A stretch of DNA of 64,000 nt from Pseudomonadales bacterium. GTDB taxonomy: Bacteria; Pseudomonadota; Gammaproteobacteria; Pseudomonadales; Azotimanducaceae. The stretch lies in the NCBI GenBank assembly GCA_019090385.1, contig JAHRWB010000001.1, forward strand, positions 10,484 to 74,483. The letters are read 5' to 3'. This document shows positions 39,827 to 59,114 of the stretch, piece by piece (position 1 is the stretch's first letter; each line of letters opens with the position of its first letter). The notes beneath the pieces were generated by a model. That model was not told where the DNA came from, searched no databases, and saw only the letters and a list, made by a program, of their open reading frames with translations. Both the position numbers and the translations under genes were made by a program.

Positions 39827-41635
39827 CTAAGTAAGCTCCAGCCCTTTCAGATCGCCAGTATTTCGCCAGTTTTCCATCAATTCAAAAAACCGCATGGAGT
39901 TACCGCCATACTGGCTGTTTTTAGCGTTTTTTTCCTCGTTTCTGCCCTCGTTATTATAATAACCCGGCGTACATTCTGCATAGAAACGCTGTCCCATGTG
40001 AGCCAGCTTGACAATAGTTTCAACCCATTCTGCCTGGGCTTCTTCTGAAGCTTCGATAACACGATAATTCCCGTCCAGCGCATGCCTAATAATGTAAGAG
40101 AGATGCTTAGCCTGCTCATTGAGTGCATGGGGATAATTAGCGGTAAATCCCGTTTGCGCCCCACCCCCCATAATAAAGCAGTTGGGGAACCCGCGCGAAT
40201 GCATACCATGCAAGGTTTCAACACCATCTTCCCAGCGCTCGGTGAGACTTTGCCCATCACGACCATATACCTCAAACCCTGAACGACGGGCGTATTCCGT
40301 ACCTACCTCAAACCCCGTGGCAAAAACCAGGCAATCGATTTCGTACTCTTTACCATTCGCAACCACACCTTTTTCAGTGATCCGCTCTACGCCTTGACCT
40401 TGTGTATCCACAAGGGTCACATTCGATCGATTAAAAGACTGCAGGTATTCATCGTGGAAGCAAGGGCGTTTACAAAACTGCCTATAATAAGGCTTTAAGG
40501 CCTCGGCAGTTTCTGAATCATTAACCACAGTATCGGCACGCGCCCGAACTTGTTGCATTTTTTGGAAATCTGCCAGCTCCATTTTTTCAGCAAGTTCTGT
40601 TTTGGAAAGACCAGAATTCTTTTTCTTTTCTATTTTTATCAATAGTAGAAGGTTACGGATTATTTCAGTCCAGCCATCGTTCACCAAATCCTCATCAGTT
40701 ACGCCACCACTAACAAGGGTGTTAAAATTATCCATACGATGTTGATGCCAACCGGGTTCCAAGGAATTAACCCACTCCTGGTCAGTTGGCTGGTCGTTAC
40801 GCACATCGATAGACGAAGGCGTACGCTGGAATACATATAATTCTTTAGCCGCTGCGCCAATATGTGGCACACATTGAACAGCAGTAGCACCCGTGCCCAA
40901 AACGCCTACACGCTTACCTTCTAAACCAGTCAGATTACCGCTGGAATCGCCACCAGTATAACCGTAATCCCAACGACTGGTGTGAAACGAATGGCCTTTA
41001 TAAGTCTCAATGCCGGGAATACCGGGCAATTTTGGGCGATTCAATGGACCGTTTGACATAGCGACAAAGCGCGCCTTCATACGATCCCCCTGATTGGTAT
41101 GTATGGTCCACATTGAGCTTTCATCATCCCAATGCATCTCAGTCACTTCAGTTTGAAAACAGGCGTTATCGTACAAATTATAGTGACGCCCAATAGCCTG
41201 GCTATGTGCCAATATTTCAGCACCATCGGAAAATTTGCGCTTAGGCATATAGTCCAGCTCTTCGAGCAGAGGTAAATATACATATGACTCAATATCGCAG
41301 GCCGCACCCGGGTAACGATTCCAATACCAGGTACCACCAAAATCCGCGCCTTTCTCAATCATGCGAATGTCTTTTACACCCTGCTCTCGCAATTTTGCAC
41401 CGGCCAACAAGCCGCCAAATCCACCCCCAATAATTGCAACCTCTACTACATCTGTTAGCGGCTCTCGTTTAATTTCCTTTCCTACATAAGGATCTTCAAC
41501 ATAATGGGCAAATTCACCCTCCACTTCCTGATATTGTTGATTACCGTCATCACGAATTCGTTTATCACGTTCCGTTCGATACTTCTGACGTAGTTCGTCA
41601 GGGTCAAAACCCAAATCCAATGCTGAATCGCTCAT
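39827..41635 (-). CDS. Type I Baeyer-Villiger monooxygenase (FAD/NADPH-dependent)
   Basis: 602 aa with Rossmann motifs IIGGGFGGL and VLGTGATAVQ. The BVMO fingerprint is Y-K-G-HSF-H-TSR-W-D (FxGxxxHxxxW type), alongside GGTWYWNRYPGAACD. Confidence 0.9.
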   Translation of the reverse strand: MSDSALDLGFDPDELRQKYRTERDKRIRDDGNQQYQEVEGEFAHYVEDPYVGKEIKREPLTDVVEVAIIGGGFGGLLAGAKLREQGVKDIRMIEKGADFGGTWYWNRYPGAACDIESYVYLPLLEELDYMPKRKFSDGAEILAHSQAIGRHYNLYDNACFQTEVTEMHWDDESSMWTIHTNQGDRMKARFVAMSNGPLNRPKLPGIPGIETYKGHSFHTSRWDYGYTGGDSSGNLTGLEGKRVGVLGTGATAVQCVPHIGAAAKELYVFQRTPSSIDVRNDQPTDQEWVNSLEPGWHQHRMDNFNTLVSGGVTDEDLVNDGWTEIIRNLLLLIKIEKKKNSGLSKTELAEKMELADFQKMQQVRARADTVVNDSETAEALKPYYRQFCKRPCFHDEYLQSFNRSNVTLVDTQGQGVERITEKGVVANGKEYEIDCLVFATGFEVGTEYARRSGFEVYGRDGQSLTERWEDGVETLHGMHSRGFPNCFIMGGGAQTGFTANYPHALNEQAKHLSYIIRHALDGNYRVIEASEEAQAEWVETIVKLAHMGQRFYAECTPGYYNNEGRNEEKNAKNSQYGGNSMRFFELMENWRNTGDLKGLELT

Positions 41636-54862: not shown

Positions 54863-55708
54863 CTAAGCAGGTGACCCGCTAATGGCTAATTGACTATCTG
54901 GCACCAAAAATCTTTCATAATCATCCAGTAGCTCAGGGCGTTCAAAGTGCAGGAAATGCCCGACGCCCTGCACTAGCAACAGTTCGCAATCTGGTATCAG
55001 CTTTTCAGCAACATACATGTCTGCCACATCAATAATGGTGTCATCCGCCCCGTTAATAATAAGAGTTCTGGCTTTTATTTTCGTCAGGTCCACCACCTCA
55101 TCAAGTCGGCCCAGCTTAAGAATATTTGCCGTATGCTCATAAAAGGACGCCGCATGCGCTTCGTTGAGTTGCTTGAACTGAGCGATAATCTGCTTTTTAT
55201 AGCCCTCACCAATTTGAGCACCAAATAACTCAAGAATTAAATTTGCCCCCCCGGCATAGTCACCAGCCTCGTATAGTACCGATGCTCGTTCCACCAAATA
55301 CCGCATCCCCTCATTAGGCTGCATCCCAAAACTGCTCAGCACCAAATGTTGTACTGCATTAGGATACAAGGCTGCGTAGGCAGCAGCGATAGCAGTACCC
55401 CAGGAGCTGCCGGCCAGCGCTAACTCGCCTCCACCTGTATGCGTCTCGGTAATAATTGCATGCAGTGTCTCTACCTGCTCCTCAACCGTAATCCTGGCCC
55501 CGCCCGATATTATTTTCGAGCGGCCTATTCCTGGCATATCAAAAATAACTACCGTCAAATCACCTGTGAAGCGTTTTACCACACTGCGCCATATTGCCAT
55601 GGTCTGAAGCGCCCCACTAACACAGACCATTACATTGTCGTTATCTCCATATTTTCTGTATGGAACTTCAAATCGACCAATGCTCAACGTACCTTTTACT
55701 GTTTTCAT
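54863..55708 (-). CDS. Alpha/beta hydrolase resembling the RhlA / PhaG (3-hydroxyacyl-ACP acyltransferase) subfamily
   Basis: 281 aa. From memory, several blocks align with RhlA and PhaG: CVSGALQTMAIW...VVIFDMPGIGRSK, the nucleophile motif GSSWG, LSSFGMQPNEGMRYL, and INGADD...GVGHFLHFE. The start overlaps the upstream stop as ATGA. Confidence 0.55.
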   Translation of the reverse strand: MKTVKGTLSIGRFEVPYRKYGDNDNVMVCVSGALQTMAIWRSVVKRFTGDLTVVIFDMPGIGRSKIISGGARITVEEQVETLHAIITETHTGGGELALAGSSWGTAIAAAYAALYPNAVQHLVLSSFGMQPNEGMRYLVERASVLYEAGDYAGGANLILELFGAQIGEGYKKQIIAQFKQLNEAHAASFYEHTANILKLGRLDEVVDLTKIKARTLIINGADDTIIDVADMYVAEKLIPDCELLLVQGVGHFLHFERPELLDDYERFLVPDSQLAISGSPA

Positions 55709-56616
55709 ATAACCCTGCGATTGTTCATGAACGCACGACCACGTGCGTCAGCCTTACCCTGCTTCCAGCCAAACCAGTGTTCAGCAGCCAGCTTGTTGCT
55801 TATACGATCTACGGGAGAAAGCGCCAGAATATTCATCAACCCCATCAAACGGCCATTCAGCGTTTGATTTGCGGCTCTGAGTGAAATACCGATTCCGGCA
55901 TCCAGGTATTTAACCTCATGCCAGAATGCACTGGGGATAAACAGCGACTGCCCTGCTTCCACGACTACCTCATAGCCACGAGCGGCCTTTAATGCCGGAT
56001 AATTAACATCATTCGGATCGTCAAGGTTAACATAACTACGAACCGTAAACGGGTGTTTGTGTAAAGCGGTGGATTGATCAGGAGCAAACAAGCGGATTCG
56101 ACGTCGACCCAAAATAGAGGTGTAAAGAACGTGGCTCATATCTATGTCGTAATGCAGCGGTGTTATCGATCCGCGACAGCCAAAAAAACTGTATACAAAC
56201 GATTGTGCAAAATTCAGCCCAACGTCAGGGAACTCAACATCTTCCAGTAATTCCGGAATCTGACGGCCTATATTGTAAAGAAACATGCGCAAATCCCGCC
56301 CTTTGCCCAGGGTCTCACTTAGAAACTCCGAAAATGGCATGACACCGATACTGTCCATGTAGTTTTTACCCGGCTCGCCAAATAGTGCGTTATAGACACG
56401 TACTGGTTTGCTTCCAAAGCGTGCGCTCAGGCTTCCTGCATTCCAGGAGTGCAATGCAGGCCAGTCCGCCGCCAGCCCACTGATCAGGAGGGGTGTATTT
56501 CGTTCTTTCAAAAGCTCCGGGAAGGAACCTGATGCGCCATCCAGAGAAACGCACTCGATTTGGCGTGTAAACAAGTTCGGTGCAAACATTTCGGTGTCAC
56601 TGTCCTGGTCATCCAC
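55705..56616 (-). CDS. JmjC / cupin-8 domain Fe(II)/2-oxoglutarate oxygenase-like protein
   Basis: 303 aa with the HxD motif in TPLHYDID, the distal His in FIPSAFWHEV and an N-terminal LLISGLAADWPAL, typical of bacterial JmjC/cupin_8 proteins. Confidence 0.75.
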   Translation of the reverse strand: MDDQDSDTEMFAPNLFTRQIECVSLDGASGSFPELLKERNTPLLISGLAADWPALHSWNAGSLSARFGSKPVRVYNALFGEPGKNYMDSIGVMPFSEFLSETLGKGRDLRMFLYNIGRQIPELLEDVEFPDVGLNFAQSFVYSFFGCRGSITPLHYDIDMSHVLYTSILGRRRIRLFAPDQSTALHKHPFTVRSYVNLDDPNDVNYPALKAARGYEVVVEAGQSLFIPSAFWHEVKYLDAGIGISLRAANQTLNGRLMGLMNILALSPVDRISNKLAAEHWFGWKQGKADARGRAFMNNRRVI

Positions 56617-56665
56617 CTTGTGTATTCCTGATACTTTGCATAAATTAACGTACTTTTTTTCTTCA

Positions 56666-57142
56666 TCATGAAATTTTCAGAGACATCATACTGTGCGGTA
56701 GATAATCCTCAATATAACTTTCGCCGTAAACCTTAAAACCCAGCTTTTCATACAATCCTATGGCATGTTCCTGAGCAGACATTTGGATTTCATCTATTTC
56801 TTTATTTTTCTGCATTTGACCTATCAGCAACTCCAAAAGGTTTGATGCAAAGCCTCTTCCACGAAATTCAATTAGTGTGGCAATACGTCCAATTTTTGCT
56901 ATACAAGTTTCAGGGTATAAAACACGGCAGGTTATAACAGGCTCGCCATCACAATAACCTATGTAATGTTCAGCAATATCATCCTTATCATCAAATTCTT
57001 CAATGGCTGGGCATTTTTGTTCAATAACAAATACTTTTGTTCTTATCGAAGCAACTAAACCAAAATCTTTTAGAGTAGATATTTGTTTTAGTTCAAAATC
57101 AGCACTGCCCAAGATATCCCCCAAATCTTTGCTCACTTCCAA
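56666..57142 (-). CDS. GNAT N-acetyltransferase (ElaA/YjcF-like)
   Basis: 158 aa from a TTG start, so the start is uncertain. Blocks IRTKVFVIEQKCP..EEFDDKD, KIGRIATLIEFRGRGFASNLL and GLYEKLGF follow the ElaA pattern. Confidence 0.75.
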   Translation of the reverse strand: MEVSKDLGDILGSADFELKQISTLKDFGLVASIRTKVFVIEQKCPAIEEFDDKDDIAEHYIGYCDGEPVITCRVLYPETCIAKIGRIATLIEFRGRGFASNLLELLIGQMQKNKEIDEIQMSAQEHAIGLYEKLGFKVYGESYIEDYLPHSMMSLKIS

Positions 57143-57293: not shown

Positions 57294-59114
57294 TTAGGAG
57301 AGTTCTAACCCGGGAAATTTACCTCCGTCGCGAAACTCGGCTAATTTTTCGAAATATTTATTCGCTCCCACCATGCCGCCATAGGGTTGGTTATATCGAG
57401 ATCTTGGATCATGCTGTCCTTCCAGGTTGTAGTAACCCGGGGTACACGTTGAACCACCCATCATGGTAACAGCTTTAGTACCCACCACTGCAGCGGTCCA
57501 TGCCATTTCAGCATCTTCGGTCGCATCTACCCGAGAAATATTGTTATCCAAAAAGTGCTTAATAAGGTGGGCAGTATGCAGGGCGCCCTCATCCAGGGCA
57601 TCGGGGTAATTGGCGGTAAAGGCTGCTTGCCCATTGCCTATCAATAAGCAATTGGGGAAACCATGACTATGGATGCCAAAGTACGAGATCATTCCCTTAC
57701 TCCACTTTTCTTCAAGACTGATTCCATCAACACCAATTAAGTCATAACCGGCACGACGCGTGTAGTCAGTACCCACCTCAAACCCCGTCGCAAAAATAAG
57801 GCAGTCGACCTCATATTCAACCCCATCAACAATAACGCCTGTTTCGGTAATGGCTTCAACGCCTTGACCATCCGTATCCACAAGTTGAACGTTGTCTCTA
57901 TTAAATGTCGGTAAATATCGATCATCTAAACAAGGCCGCTTACACATAAAAGCGTAATATGGTTTAAGCGCCTCAGCGACCTCTTTATTTTCAACAATAT
58001 CCTCTACTCGATTTCTAACATTTTCCATTTTTTCAAAGTTAGCGAACTCATAGATTCTGCCAGCATCTCCCGGTTGAACATCTGAACCCAATTCACGCAT
58101 CCTTCTGCGGTATATTTTTCCCATTTCGACCCAGGCATCATCGAACTGGTCTAGTTGTTCGATCTCCCCTCGACGTCCGCCTCGTCCGCTTATAACCGCG
58201 GTAAAATCTTTTTGCCGCTGCTTTTGCCACCCAGGTTTCAAACCGGCAGCCCATTCGGAGTCAGTTGGGTGATCATTACGAAAATCCACACCCGACGGTG
58301 TACGCTGAAAAACATACAATTGTTTCGCGCTTTCTCCTAAATAGGAGACACATTGAATCGCTGTCGCACCGGTACCAATAATGCCAACGCGTTTGTCTTT
58401 CAGGCCCGTAAGTCCACCCCGGGAATTGCCGCCGGTGTAGTTGTAGTCCCATCGACTGGTATGAAAAGTGTGGCCTTTAAATTTGCTAATACCTTTTATT
58501 CCGGGCAGTTTAGGCCGGTTCAGAGGACCGTTAACCATAAGCACAAATCTTGCTTTTATTTTGTCATCACGGTTGGTATAAATCGTCCAGCGGCGGCTAG
58601 CTTCATCCCATACCAGCTTTTCTACTTCTGTTTGCATACAGGCGTTATCATAGAGCCGGTATTTTTTTGCTACATTTTGGCAATGACTCAGAATTTCCTG
58701 CGCATCCGCGTACTTTCGCGGTGGCATATAATCCAGCTCTTCCAATAGGGGCAAGTAGGTATACGCTTCGATATCACAGGCAGCACCAGGGTAGCGGTTC
58801 CAGTACCAGGTTCCACCAAAATCCGATGCCTTCTCAATCACCCGTATATCTTCTACCCCCGCTTCACGTAAGCGCGCACCAGCAAACAAGCCACCGATAC
58901 CACCCCCGATAATCGCCACGTTCACTTCGTCTTCCAAGGGTGCTCGATTGATGGGGTTTTCTACGTAGGGGTCATCAATAAAATGCGAAAAATCGCCTCT
59001 CATCTCCTGATACTGTTCATTGCCATCTGCGCGCAGACGTTTCACTCTTTCTTCTTCGTACTTTTGCCTTAAATATTCCGGGTCAAAGGCTTCTTTGGTT
59101 TCACTGATACTCAC
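57294..59114 (-). CDS. Type I Baeyer-Villiger monooxygenase, paralog of 39827-41635
   Basis: 606 aa with IIGGGIGGL, IIGTGATAIQ, a perfect fingerprint FKGHTFHTSRWD and GGTWYWNRYPGAACDIEAYTYLPLLEELDYMP. Confidence 0.9.
   Translation of the reverse strand: MSISETKEAFDPEYLRQKYEEERVKRLRADGNEQYQEMRGDFSHFIDDPYVENPINRAPLEDEVNVAIIGGGIGGLFAGARLREAGVEDIRVIEKASDFGGTWYWNRYPGAACDIEAYTYLPLLEELDYMPPRKYADAQEILSHCQNVAKKYRLYDNACMQTEVEKLVWDEASRRWTIYTNRDDKIKARFVLMVNGPLNRPKLPGIKGISKFKGHTFHTSRWDYNYTGGNSRGGLTGLKDKRVGIIGTGATAIQCVSYLGESAKQLYVFQRTPSGVDFRNDHPTDSEWAAGLKPGWQKQRQKDFTAVISGRGGRRGEIEQLDQFDDAWVEMGKIYRRRMRELGSDVQPGDAGRIYEFANFEKMENVRNRVEDIVENKEVAEALKPYYAFMCKRPCLDDRYLPTFNRDNVQLVDTDGQGVEAITETGVIVDGVEYEVDCLIFATGFEVGTDYTRRAGYDLIGVDGISLEEKWSKGMISYFGIHSHGFPNCLLIGNGQAAFTANYPDALDEGALHTAHLIKHFLDNNISRVDATEDAEMAWTAAVVGTKAVTMMGGSTCTPGYYNLEGQHDPRSRYNQPYGGMVGANKYFEKLAEFRDGGKFPGLELS

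What the first reader, a model, noticed from the sequence alone, without database searches (positions are those of the whole stretch)
54863..57142. GNAT (ElaA-like) / JmjC-cupin / RhlA-PhaG-like hydrolase operon, a possible novel lipid or biosurfactant pathway
Three minus-strand genes sit in tandem. The JmjC stop and the hydrolase start overlap as ATGA (55705-55708), which implies coupled translation.

The hydrolase is not a generic esterase-like sequence. Its blocks around the GSSWG nucleophile, LSSFG...NEGM and the C-terminal INGxDD...GxGHFL resemble RhlA and PhaG. Those enzymes take 3-hydroxyacyl-ACP out of fatty-acid synthesis to build HAA surfactant precursors or PHA precursors.

I do not recognise the pairing of such an enzyme with a JmjC-type oxygenase and a small N-acyltransferase from any described rhamnolipid, PHA or N-acyl-amino-acid cluster. 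A BVMO lies 150 bp upstream on the same strand. An alternative reading is therefore a BVMO plus esterase pair of the methyl-ketone degradation type.
Basis: partly seen in the sequence, partly recalled or inferred. Interest (0 to 1): 0.6.

Follow-up and report, generated by a model that had tools for sequence, protein, structure and literature searches.

The report
Conserved oxygenase plus RhlA-like enzyme pair
Two overlapping genes, an iron-dependent oxygenase and a distant cousin of the enzyme that builds the fatty core of rhamnolipid surfactants, travel together in well over a hundred bacterial genomes and probably make or modify an unknown hydroxylated lipid, while the neighbouring acetyltransferase and Baeyer-Villiger monooxygenase (BVMO) genes are chance neighbours.

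Summary
Three tandem minus-strand ORFs, the ATGA stop/start overlap at 55705-55708 and the RhlA/PhaG-like motifs are all present.

The functional unit is two genes, not three: the JmjC/Cupin_8 oxygenase (55705-56616) and the alpha/beta-hydrolase (54863-55708).
- From the hydrolase side, the JmjC is adjacent in 58 of 59 species-genome loci.
- From the JmjC side, the hydrolase is adjacent in 69 of 75 metagenome loci.
- The pairing holds in two gene orders and several phyla, and 46 of 57 loci in the window's order have overlapping stop/start codons.
- GNAT and BVMO co-occur in 0 of 127 loci.

The GNAT is compositionally foreign (36% GC, GC3 27%), and its closest homologues sit between murB and ddl. 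The BVMO is one of 12 paralogues, and its orthologue lies in a genome without the pair.

RhlA (8ik2) is the hydrolase's closest solved relative by sequence, profile and fold. The two share RhlA/PhaG-specific motifs. At about 27% identity the hydrolase belongs to a separate sister family, with no glycosyltransferase partner.

Recurrent accessory neighbours are an OlsC/LpxO-like acyl 2-hydroxylase and an exported chalcone-isomerase-like protein. These point to a hydroxylated acyloxyacyl-type lipid.

No publication was found, and the function is inferred only.

The parts
54863..55708 (-). Alpha/beta-hydrolase-fold enzyme (281 aa). It belongs to a distinct family that is sister to RhlA/PhaG. The catalytic triad is Ser102-Asp223-His251.
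   Evidence: Pfam Abhydrolase_1. Best PDB match is RhlA 8ik2: phmmer E 3e-14, family profile E 2e-23 (86 bits, next hit 65 bits), Foldseek E 2.6e-19 with TM 0.82/0.85. The triad is invariant in 18 orthologues. Trees are, shared signatures.
55705..56616 (-). JmjC/Cupin_8 Fe(II)/2-oxoglutarate oxygenase (303 aa). It has His155-x-Asp157...His233 and Arg172 at the 2OG-binding Lys position of JMJD5. A family-specific, roughly 50-residue C-terminal helix (253-302) is also present.
   Evidence: Pfam Cupin_8, 87.5 bits. PDB best match is JMJD5 at E 1e-23, then TYW5 and FIH. Metal ligands are invariant in 21 orthologues. AF2 model has pLDDT 88.5, with Foldseek JMJD5 E 1.7e-21 and TMt 0.84.
55705..55708 (-). 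ATGA stop/start overlap, giving translational coupling of JmjC to the hydrolase.
   Evidence: Read directly from the sequence. The overlap is conserved in 46 of 57 loci with this gene order.
56685..56712 (-). Weak sigma-70-like promoter candidate (TTGAGG-16-TATGAT) inside the GNAT 3' end, about 70 bp upstream of the JmjC start.
   Evidence: Consensus scan only. The region has fewer such hits than shuffled sequence, so this is a pointer and not evidence.
56666..57142 (-). GNAT acetyltransferase, an adjacent bystander that is NOT part of the conserved module. It may still be co-transcribed, because it ends only 49 bp upstream.
   Evidence: GC is 36% and GC3 27%, against 47-50% for its neighbours. 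It is absent from 127 of 127 other paired loci. The best match in 24 relatives is 33-39% identical. Homologues at 53-65% identity lie between murB and ddl.
57294..59114 (-). Type I Baeyer-Villiger monooxygenase, a neighbour that is NOT part of the module.
   Evidence: NCBIfam PtlE-like, 687 bits against a cut-off of 1100. It is one of 12 paralogues in the genome. Its 84% orthologue is in G002, which lacks the pair, and no other window gene is nearby there. It never co-occurs with the pair.

Best explanation
The real unit is a two-gene, translationally coupled cassette. A cytoplasmic JmjC-type Fe(II)/2-oxoglutarate oxygenase is followed by an alpha/beta-fold Ser-Asp-His enzyme from a family sister to RhlA/PhaG.

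By analogy with RhlA/PhaG, the hydrolase most likely takes a (3-hydroxy)acyl chain from acyl-ACP onto its serine. It then either releases the chain or transfers it to a hydroxyl acceptor, forming an acyloxyacyl-type ester. The JmjC enzyme most likely hydroxylates that acyl substrate or product.

In relatives the cassette is often joined by two further genes. One is an OlsC/LpxO-like enzyme, a family that 2-hydroxylates ester-linked acyl chains of acyloxyacyl lipids. The other is an exported protein with a chalcone-isomerase (fatty-acid-binding) fold. The product is therefore probably a hydroxylated fatty-acid-ester lipid that reaches the envelope.

Shown: the two-gene unit, intact catalytic residues, the relationship to RhlA/PhaG, and the accessory neighbours. 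Inferred: acyl-ACP as substrate, the oxygenase's target, and the product.

The GNAT and the BVMO in this window are not part of the system. The window's copy has lost the OlsC-like partner that its closest relatives keep.
For: Pair conservation:
- 58 of 59 genome loci from the hydrolase side and 69 of 75 metagenome loci from the JmjC side carry both genes.
- The association survives a change of gene order (JmjC>ABH and ABH>JmjC) and spans Gammaproteobacteria, Nitrospiraceae and Binatia.
- 46 of 57 loci have overlapping stop/start codons.

Catalytic competence:
- Ser102/Asp223/His251 are invariant.
- His155/Asp157/His233 are invariant, and Arg/Lys172 is kept at the 2OG-binding position.

RhlA relationship:
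- RhlA 8ik2 is the top hit by phmmer, by profile (86 bits against 65 for the next) and by Foldseek.
- In the 1.84-billion-protein search, RhlA/PhaG representatives fill the first tier outside the family, and the relationship is reciprocal.
- In the trees, all 26 other hydrolases sit on one side of a branch (94/75), apart from this family and RhlA/PhaG.
- Shared signature residues are listed.
- The next-best structural relatives are lipid enzymes: ABHD6, PlaF and a lipase.

Lipid context:
- The divergent neighbour matches NCBIfam OlsC at 223 bits and LpxO at 138 bits, and occurs in 12 + 11 loci.
- A Chalcone_3 protein with a signal peptide occurs in 29 + 21 loci.
- LpxO, OlsC and OlsD hydroxylate acyl chains of acyloxyacyl lipids (PMC12971839).
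- Alpha/beta-fold enzymes form such esters, as OlsI does (PMC12493201) and RhlA does.

Bystander status of GNAT and BVMO.
Against: - No biochemical or genetic data exist for any member, and no paper was found.
- Identity to RhlA is only 24-27%. The family is a separate clade (RhlA/PhaG 100/100), so substrate class may differ.
- The closest solved relatives of the JmjC (JMJD5, FIH, JMJD7, TYW5) act on proteins or tRNA, not lipids.
- The OlsC-like and chalcone-isomerase-like partners are present in only a minority of loci and absent from this window. No Chalcone_3 match was found in this genome, but the control genomes were silent too.
- No transporter or glycosyltransferase is consistently linked.
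- Sisterhood with RhlA/PhaG depends on the root lying among the other hydrolases, and support is moderate (94/75).
Confidence: 0.5

Rival explanations
1. Protein-modification pair. The JmjC enzyme is a protein (Arg/Asn/Lys) hydroxylase like JMJD5, FIH or JMJD7, acting on a ribosomal, translation or other protein. The alpha/beta-hydrolase is a partner that processes the same protein, or is itself the target.
For: All close solved relatives of the JmjC are protein or tRNA hydroxylases. Conserved translational coupling suggests a 1:1 complex. The Asp_Arg_Hydrox neighbour family also contains protein hydroxylases such as human AspH.
Against: The hydrolase's nearest relatives are acyl-ACP and lipid enzymes, not peptidases. 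The Asp_Arg_Hydrox neighbour scores far better against OlsC/LpxO lipid hydroxylase models. The exported chalcone-isomerase-fold partner has no obvious place in a cytoplasmic protein-hydroxylation system. The distribution is patchy, in 4 of 41 relatives, which is unlike a core translational modification.
Confidence: 0.15
2. Catabolic pair. The hydrolase cleaves an ester or lactone (PcaD/BioH-like) and the oxygenase hydroxylates the released small molecule, for use of some marine organic compound.
For: The best NCBIfam hits are enol-lactonase-type models, PcaDC at 82 bits and PcaD at 55 bits. JGI labels homologues 'pimeloyl-ACP methyl ester carboxylesterase'. Neighbourhoods are variable and often carry catabolic genes such as thiolase, acyl-CoA dehydrogenase, Fe-ADH and aldo-keto reductase. 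The distribution is patchy and accessory.
Against: All those NCBIfam scores are far below their cut-offs of 208-430 bits. The RhlA-specific signatures and tree placement argue against it. No transporter or regulator is consistently linked. The OlsC-like and fatty-acid-binding-fold partners point to lipids.
Confidence: 0.15
3. A three-gene GNAT-JmjC-hydrolase operon makes an N-acylated or HAA-type lipid or biosurfactant, with the GNAT as N-acyltransferase.
For: All three genes lie on one strand with a 49-bp gap, so co-transcription in this genome is possible. The hydrolase is RhlA-like.
Against: The GNAT is absent from 127 of 127 other paired loci, including the 87%-identical congener. Its GC of 36% and GC3 of 27% mark it as foreign. 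No relative has an orthologue. Its homologues are embedded between murB and ddl. It is an ElaA-type small GNAT at 44 bits against a cut-off of 171, not an OlsB/FeeM-type N-acyl amino acid synthase.
Confidence: 0.06
4. The BVMO and the hydrolase form a methyl-ketone or ester-degradation pair, in which the BVMO makes an ester and the esterase cleaves it.
For: The BVMO lies on the same strand, 1.6 kb upstream of the hydrolase. The genome is rich in BVMOs, which suggests ketone or alkane oxidation.
Against: BVMO is absent from 127 of 127 other paired loci. The BVMO's orthologue (84%) is in a genome without the pair and shares no synteny. The congener that has the pair lacks this BVMO's orthologue. 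Two unrelated genes separate the BVMO and the hydrolase, and the hydrolase is tightly coupled to the JmjC instead.
Confidence: 0.03
5. PhaG-type role. The hydrolase diverts 3-hydroxyacyl-ACP to polyhydroxyalkanoate synthesis.
For: PhaG belongs to the sister clade.
Against: The 99%-complete genome has no PhaC_N match, and only 2 of 4 pair-bearing relatives have one. No PHA genes appear in about 140 neighbourhoods. This role gives the obligatory oxygenase partner no function.
Confidence: 0.04

Closest known systems
RhlA (3-(3-hydroxyalkanoyloxy)alkanoate synthase, Pseudomonas aeruginosa, PDB 8ik2) and PhaG (3-hydroxyacyl-ACP thioesterase/transacylase)
   Same: Alpha/beta-hydrolase fold of the same size, with the Ser-Asp-His triad at equivalent positions (Ser102, Asp223 and His251 in this protein's numbering). 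Shared signatures that other hydrolases lack: (N/S)-G-A-x-x-T oxyanion loop, S-W-G elbow, S-F...N, N-G-x-x-D and G-H-F-L. Best sequence, profile and fold match. Reciprocal nearest family.
   Different: Only 24-27% identity, whereas validated RhlAs share at least 35% and RhlA versus PhaG is 44% (PMC7054101). It forms a separate clade. It is never next to an rhlB-type glycosyltransferase and is not in the PhaG synteny. It is almost always coupled to a JmjC oxygenase, which RhlA and PhaG never are.
JMJD5/KDM8, FIH, TYW5 and JMJD7 (eukaryotic JmjC-only hydroxylases, Pfam Cupin_8)
   Same: Double-stranded beta-helix core (TM 0.84 to JMJD5), the HxD...H iron triad, and a basic residue at the 2OG C5-carboxylate position.
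   Different: About 24% identity and bacterial origin. No N-terminal domain. A family-specific conserved 50-residue C-terminal helix carrying SP-x-DR...N...W-x-x-WK. Genetically coupled to an acyl-transfer enzyme. The substrate is unknown and probably not a protein.
Acyloxyacyl-lipid systems: OlsI (alpha/beta-fold O-acyltransferase of ornithine lipid) with OlsC/OlsD/LpxO 2-hydroxylases
   Same: The same logic: an alpha/beta-fold enzyme that makes an ester on a 3-hydroxy fatty acid, plus Fe(II)/2OG hydroxylases that decorate the acyl chains. The OlsC-like gene lies divergently next to the pair in the window's own subclade.
   Different: The hydrolase scores only 37.6 bits against OlsI, whose cut-off is 385. 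No OlsH, OlsB or OlsF is adjacent. The oxygenase that is always present is a JmjC, not an LpxO-family enzyme. The OlsC-like partner is missing from this window.
The chalcone-isomerase-like/JmjC/RhlA-like trio noted earlier in this scan in a Pseudohaliea genome (e1-4130135)
   Same: The same two core families and the same closest-known protein, RhlA 8ik2.
   Different: The window's copy lacks the chalcone-isomerase-like gene. It belongs to a subclade that normally carries a divergent OlsC-like gene instead, which has also been lost here and replaced by a foreign GNAT.

Membership tests
RhlA/PhaG family | Alpha/beta-hydrolase fold with a Ser-Asp-His triad | tested here: met
   Ser102, Asp223 and His251 are invariant and align with the RhlA triad positions. 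Foldseek TM is 0.82/0.85 to 8ik2.
RhlA/PhaG family | Falls inside the RhlA/PhaG clade, with at least about 35% identity to validated members (PMC7054101) | tested here: not met
   Identity is 27% by BLASTP and 24% by Foldseek. RhlA/PhaG representatives form their own clade at 100/100, excluding this family.
RhlA/PhaG family | Family-specific sequence signatures (N-G-A oxyanion loop, S-W-G, G-H-F-L and others) | tested here: met
   Shared by 80-100% of both groups against 4-27% of other hydrolases. The window's subclade has Ser instead of Asn at position 31.
RhlA/PhaG family | Genomic context: rhlB glycosyltransferase operon for RhlA, or the conserved PhaG synteny and a PHA synthase in the genome | tested here: not met
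   No glycosyltransferase recurs in about 140 neighbourhoods. The genome has no PhaC_N match.
RhlA/PhaG family | Uses 3-hydroxyacyl-ACP, with HAA synthesis or thioesterase activity | not testable with these tools
   Needs an enzyme assay or heterologous expression with lipidomics.
JmjC / Cupin_8 Fe(II)/2OG oxygenases | DSBH fold with the HxD/E...H metal triad and a basic 2OG-binding residue | tested here: met
   Cupin_8 scores 87.5 bits against a cut-off of 27.4. His155, Asp157 and His233 are invariant, and Arg/Lys172 aligns with JMJD5 Lys336. TMt is 0.84 to JMJD5.
JMJD5/FIH-type protein hydroxylases (orthology) | Close sequence relationship and a protein substrate | tested here: inconclusive
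   Best hits, but only about 24% identity. Extra C-terminal helix. The substrate is not testable here.
   0 of 127 loci. Foreign composition. Homologues lie in dcw clusters.
BVMO-esterase degradation cassette | BVMO and esterase are conserved neighbours | tested here: not met
   0 of 127 loci. The BVMO orthologue is in a genome without the pair.
BioH / PcaD / OlsI (curated NCBIfam equivalogs that gave weak hits) | Score above the curated cut-off | tested here: not met
   BioH 33.6 against 207, PcaD 54.9 against 256, PcaDC 81.6 against 390, OlsI 37.6 against 385.

The most novel reading that the evidence does not exclude
The JmjC/RhlA-sister pair, with its optional OlsC-like hydroxylase and exported chalcone-isomerase-fold carrier, is the biosynthetic core of an undescribed class of hydroxylated acyloxyacyl (estolide/HAA-like) lipids or surfactants. 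These would be widespread in marine Gammaproteobacteria and also present in Nitrospiraceae and Binatia. The JmjC would then be the first JmjC-type oxygenase shown to act on a lipid or acyl-carrier-bound substrate.
Probability: 0.3. Interest if true: 0.75.

Novelty: new variant of a known kind. Interest (0 to 1): 0.55.

Why it matters
RhlA and PhaG are the only characterised enzymes of their clade. They are the gateways from fatty-acid synthesis to rhamnolipid surfactants and medium-chain PHA, both of biotechnological interest.

This finding defines a sister family of at least 63 clusters at 50% identity. Its members are almost always tied to a JmjC oxygenase, an enzyme class known in eukaryotes for protein and tRNA hydroxylation and barely studied in bacteria.

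If the pair makes hydroxylated fatty-acid esters, it would add a new lipid or biosurfactant route in abundant marine bacteria such as Halieaceae (OM60/NOR5) and uncultured Pseudomonadales. It would also give a new substrate class for JmjC enzymes.

The hypothesis can be tested directly. The cassette is only 1.75 kb and both enzymes look soluble. Three cultured type strains carry it.

For annotation of this window, the result removes a spurious three-gene operon and a spurious BVMO-esterase link.

Tried and rejected
- Fusion protein as Rosetta-stone evidence. P0123 (546 aa) looked like a JmjC-hydrolase fusion. Its N-terminal 330 residues are an Arg/Ala-rich out-of-frame read of a high-GC gene, so it was rejected.
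- Divergent family members without a JmjC (L061, L068, L069). Their neighbours are an EamA transporter, a two-component system, an MscS channel, cadherin-like proteins and a metallo-beta-lactamase, which gave no functional hint.
- Further conserved partners. Pooled clustering of about 140 loci found only lineage-specific housekeeping synteny (a 169-aa protein I read from its sequence as glycosylase-like, a 708-aa membrane protein I read as a proton-pumping pyrophosphatase, a Maf-like protein; none of these was scanned against a library). An RND-type pump appeared in 8 loci.
- OlsC-like partner elsewhere in this genome. One Asp_Arg_Hydrox gene lies on contig C154, but it is only 38% identical to the congener's pair-linked copy, so it is a paralogue.
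- Chalcone_3 in this genome. There was no match, but the control genomes were silent too, so absence is not proven.
- PDB sequence search with the chalcone-isomerase-like protein gave nothing significant.
- Literature. Searches for RhlA+JmjC, JmjC+hydrolase+operon, chalcone isomerase-like+JmjC and cupin+LpxO found nothing. The open-access library did not hold the 8ik2 structure paper.
- Promoter and terminator scan. Hits were at or below shuffled expectation and are not informative.
Full report
**Observation**

- hydrolase, 54863-55708, 281 aa
- JmjC, 55705-56616, 303 aa, GTG start
- GNAT, 56666-57142, 158 aa, TTG start

A 606-aa BVMO lies at 57294-59114. The sequence reads '...gtt atATGAaaaca', so the JmjC stop and the hydrolase start share four bases. 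Pfam assigns Abhydrolase_1, Cupin_8, GNAT and FMO-like/BVMO domains. No curated NCBIfam equivalog is reached by any of the four. PcaD, BioH and OlsI models are far below their cut-offs for the hydrolase. There is no hit for the JmjC. The ElaA-type model gives 44 bits against a cut-off of 171 for the GNAT. The PtlE-like model gives 687 bits against 1100 for the BVMO.

**What the conserved unit is**

The hydrolase has many homologues at 60-87% identity in marine Gammaproteobacteria. I fetched 70 loci from species-representative genomes using an alignment of 18 homologues. I then searched them with the window's eleven local proteins.
- The JmjC lies next to the hydrolase in 58 of 59 loci where the hydrolase is at least 40% identical and the contig leaves room.
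- GNAT, BVMO, the fatty-acid hydroxylase, the lipoproteins, the GT2/GtrA/GT-C triad and the large regulator never co-occur with it. This holds even in the 87%-identical congener (L007/G001).

The reciprocal test started from the JmjC in metagenome contigs. The hydrolase is adjacent in 69 of 75 loci, with GNAT and BVMO again at zero.

Two gene orders exist. JmjC>hydrolase has 55 + 27 loci, mostly Gammaproteobacteria. Hydrolase>JmjC has 3 + 42 loci, including Nitrospiraceae. An association that survives rearrangement and crosses phyla indicates functional coupling. In the window's order, 37 of 57 loci have the 4-nt overlap and 9 have a 1-nt overlap.

Within the window's own lineage the pair is patchy. 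It is single-copy in this 3.57-Mb, 99%-complete genome and present in only 4 of 41 relatives.

**The GNAT and the BVMO are bystanders**

The GNAT has 36% GC and 27% GC3, against 47-50% for every neighbour. None of 24 relatives has a homologue above 39% identity. Its few closer homologues (53-65%) sit between murB and ddl in dcw clusters of other organisms.

The genome carries 12 BVMO paralogues. This BVMO's true orthologue (84%) is in G002, a genome without the pair, and no other window gene is nearby there. The congener that has the pair has only a 57% BVMO match.

**The hydrolase**

- RhlA (PDB 8ik2) is the best solved match by phmmer (E 3e-14, full length).
- With the family profile RhlA scores E 2e-23 and 86 bits. 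The next hits, at 65-60 bits, are the lipid enzymes ABHD6, PlaF and a lipase.
- An AlphaFold model (pLDDT 86.9) has RhlA as its top Foldseek hit (E 2.6e-19, TM 0.82/0.85, 24% identity).

An exhaustive profile search of 1.84 billion representatives found 63 clusters at E <= 1e-30. Full-length scores run from 431 down to about 125 bits. Scores then drop to about 88 bits, where the RhlA/PhaG representatives sit (32-66% identical to RhlA). Conversely, RhlA's best hits outside its own family are members of this family.

Maximum-likelihood trees gave three groups:
- this family, support 82/90
- RhlA/PhaG, support 100/100
- all 26 other hydrolases, on the far side of one branch, support 94/75

This is a distinct family, most simply read as sister to RhlA/PhaG. 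That reading assumes the root lies among the other hydrolases.

The two families share signature residues that other hydrolases lack: Asn/Ser31-Gly-Ala...Thr36, Ser102-Trp103-Gly, Ser126-Phe127, Asn132, Gly163, Asn219-Gly and His251-Phe-Leu. The triad Ser102/Asp223/His251 is invariant.

Membership in RhlA/PhaG proper fails on three counts. Identity is 27%, whereas validated RhlAs share at least 35% (PMC7054101). The clade is separate. The context differs, with no rhlB-type glycosyltransferase in about 140 neighbourhoods and no PHA synthase in this genome.

**The oxygenase**

The best solved relatives are JMJD5 (E 1e-23), then TYW5, FIH and JMJD7. In 21 orthologues His155, Asp157 and His233 are invariant. 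Arg172 (Lys in the Nitrospiraceae copies) aligns with the 2OG-binding Lys336 of JMJD5.

The model (pLDDT 88.5) has a DSBH core with TM 0.84 to JMJD5. It also has a long C-terminal helix (253-302) carrying invariant Asp270, Arg271, Asn274, Trp281, Trp284 and Lys285, which JMJD5 lacks. It looks like an active Fe(II)/2OG oxygenase with an unknown substrate.

**Accessory neighbours and mechanism**

Two other families recur next to the pair.
- An exported Chalcone_3 protein with a signal peptide is present in 29 + 21 loci. In plants this fold includes fatty-acid-binding proteins (established knowledge).
- A divergently transcribed Asp_Arg_Hydrox gene is present in 12 + 11 loci. It dominates the window's own subclade: L007, L008, L010-L012, L015 and metagenome loci L105-L110, L112, L113, L116, L122 and L123. 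Its best curated match is OlsC, 'ornithine lipid ester-linked acyl 2-hydroxylase', at 223 bits over its full length. LpxO follows at 138 bits. Both are below the equivalog cut-offs.

LpxO, OlsC and OlsD 2-hydroxylate acyl chains of acyloxyacyl lipids (PMC12971839). RhlA and the recently described alpha/beta-fold OlsI form that same kind of ester on a 3-hydroxy fatty acid (PMC12493201).

The most coherent reading is as follows. The hydrolase captures a (3-hydroxy)acyl chain, probably from ACP, and releases it or esterifies it. The JmjC hydroxylates the substrate or product. An OlsC-like enzyme adds a 2-hydroxyl where present. A periplasmic chalcone-isomerase-fold protein handles the exported lipid where present. 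All of these steps are inferred and none is shown.

The window's copy has lost the OlsC-like partner. The genome's only Asp_Arg_Hydrox gene is a 38% paralogue on another contig. A foreign GNAT now occupies the upstream position.

**Rivals**

- A protein-hydroxylation system is suggested by the JmjC's eukaryotic relatives.
- A catabolic ester or lactone pathway is suggested by variable, often catabolic neighbourhoods and weak PcaD-type hits.

Neither can be excluded. The RhlA-specific signatures and the OlsC-like and fatty-acid-binding-fold partners disfavour both.

**Novelty**

No paper in the held library links RhlA or PhaG-type enzymes, or chalcone-isomerase-like proteins, with bacterial JmjC oxygenases.

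My loci L036 and L062 confirm that architecture independently.

- the reciprocal adjacency statistics
- the tree and the shared signature residues
- the OlsC-like partner of the window's subclade
- the exclusion of the GNAT and the BVMO

I rate this a new variant of a known kind: an RhlA/PhaG-type enzyme family that is almost always coupled to an oxygenase. Interest is moderate to high, because the cassette is widespread, small and directly testable, but the function is unproven.

Noticed in passing
L102:5001-5441, L103:5001-5444, L104:5001-5441 (homologues of window 56666-57142): The small ElaA-type GNAT family to which the window's foreign GNAT belongs sits between murB and ddl inside the dcw (division/cell-wall) cluster in three unrelated metagenome or genome contigs. 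That is an unusual and conserved insertion in an otherwise very stable cluster.
   Followed up: partly
window 39827-41635 and 57294-59114; G000 contigs C6, C19, C72, C83, C117, C157, C188, C227: The 3.57-Mb genome carries 12 type I BVMO paralogues at E <= 1e-100, two of them in this window and three on contig C6. This is a marked expansion that suggests a ketone or alkane oxidising lifestyle.
   Followed up: partly
L004:6608-6832 and L005:2007-2231 (upstream of the hydrolase at L004:7001-7822): In one 6.7-Mb genome the hydrolase (65% identical) sits alone in an island rich in IS66 and DDE transposases and integrases. Only a 75-aa remnant of the JmjC (43% identity) lies upstream, so this looks like a decayed or mobilised copy of the cassette.
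   Followed up: no
L134, L135, L136, L140, L144 (metagenome loci): Five JmjC orthologues (44-47% identity) have at least 1 kb of flank on each side (1.4-4 kb) but no hydrolase. They are a minority lineage in which the oxygenase is uncoupled, and their neighbours were not examined.
   Followed up: no
G000:C154:538-1005 (L084:370-1137) and G000:C154 about 6 kb (L187:619-2097): The genome's only Asp_Arg_Hydrox (OlsC/LpxO-family) gene lies about 5 kb from a 492-aa ORF with weak PilZ and FeeM/Acetyltransf_5 (N-acyl amino acid synthase-like) matches. This could be an aminolipid locus unrelated to the pair.
   Followed up: partly
L001:7886-8959 (also L002, L003): A DUF2855 protein (339 bits) follows the hydrolase on the same strand after 55 bp in TARA-derived contigs. 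In the same loci an OlsC-like gene and a fused DHO-dehydrogenase/ferredoxin-reductase-like gene lie divergently upstream.
   Followed up: no
L019, L020, L042, L115, L118, L119, L125, L154: An RND-type efflux pump gene of about 800 aa (my reading from its sequence, not scanned against a library) lies within a few kb of the pair in 8 of about 140 loci from several lineages. The link is weak, but it may hint at export.
   Followed up: no
window 55705-56616, residues 253-302 of the JmjC: The predicted 50-residue C-terminal helix carries invariant Asp270, Arg271, Asn274, Trp281, Trp284 and Lys285 across both gene-order architectures. Its role is unexplained; it could serve dimerisation, docking of the hydrolase or membrane-interface binding.
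   Followed up: partly
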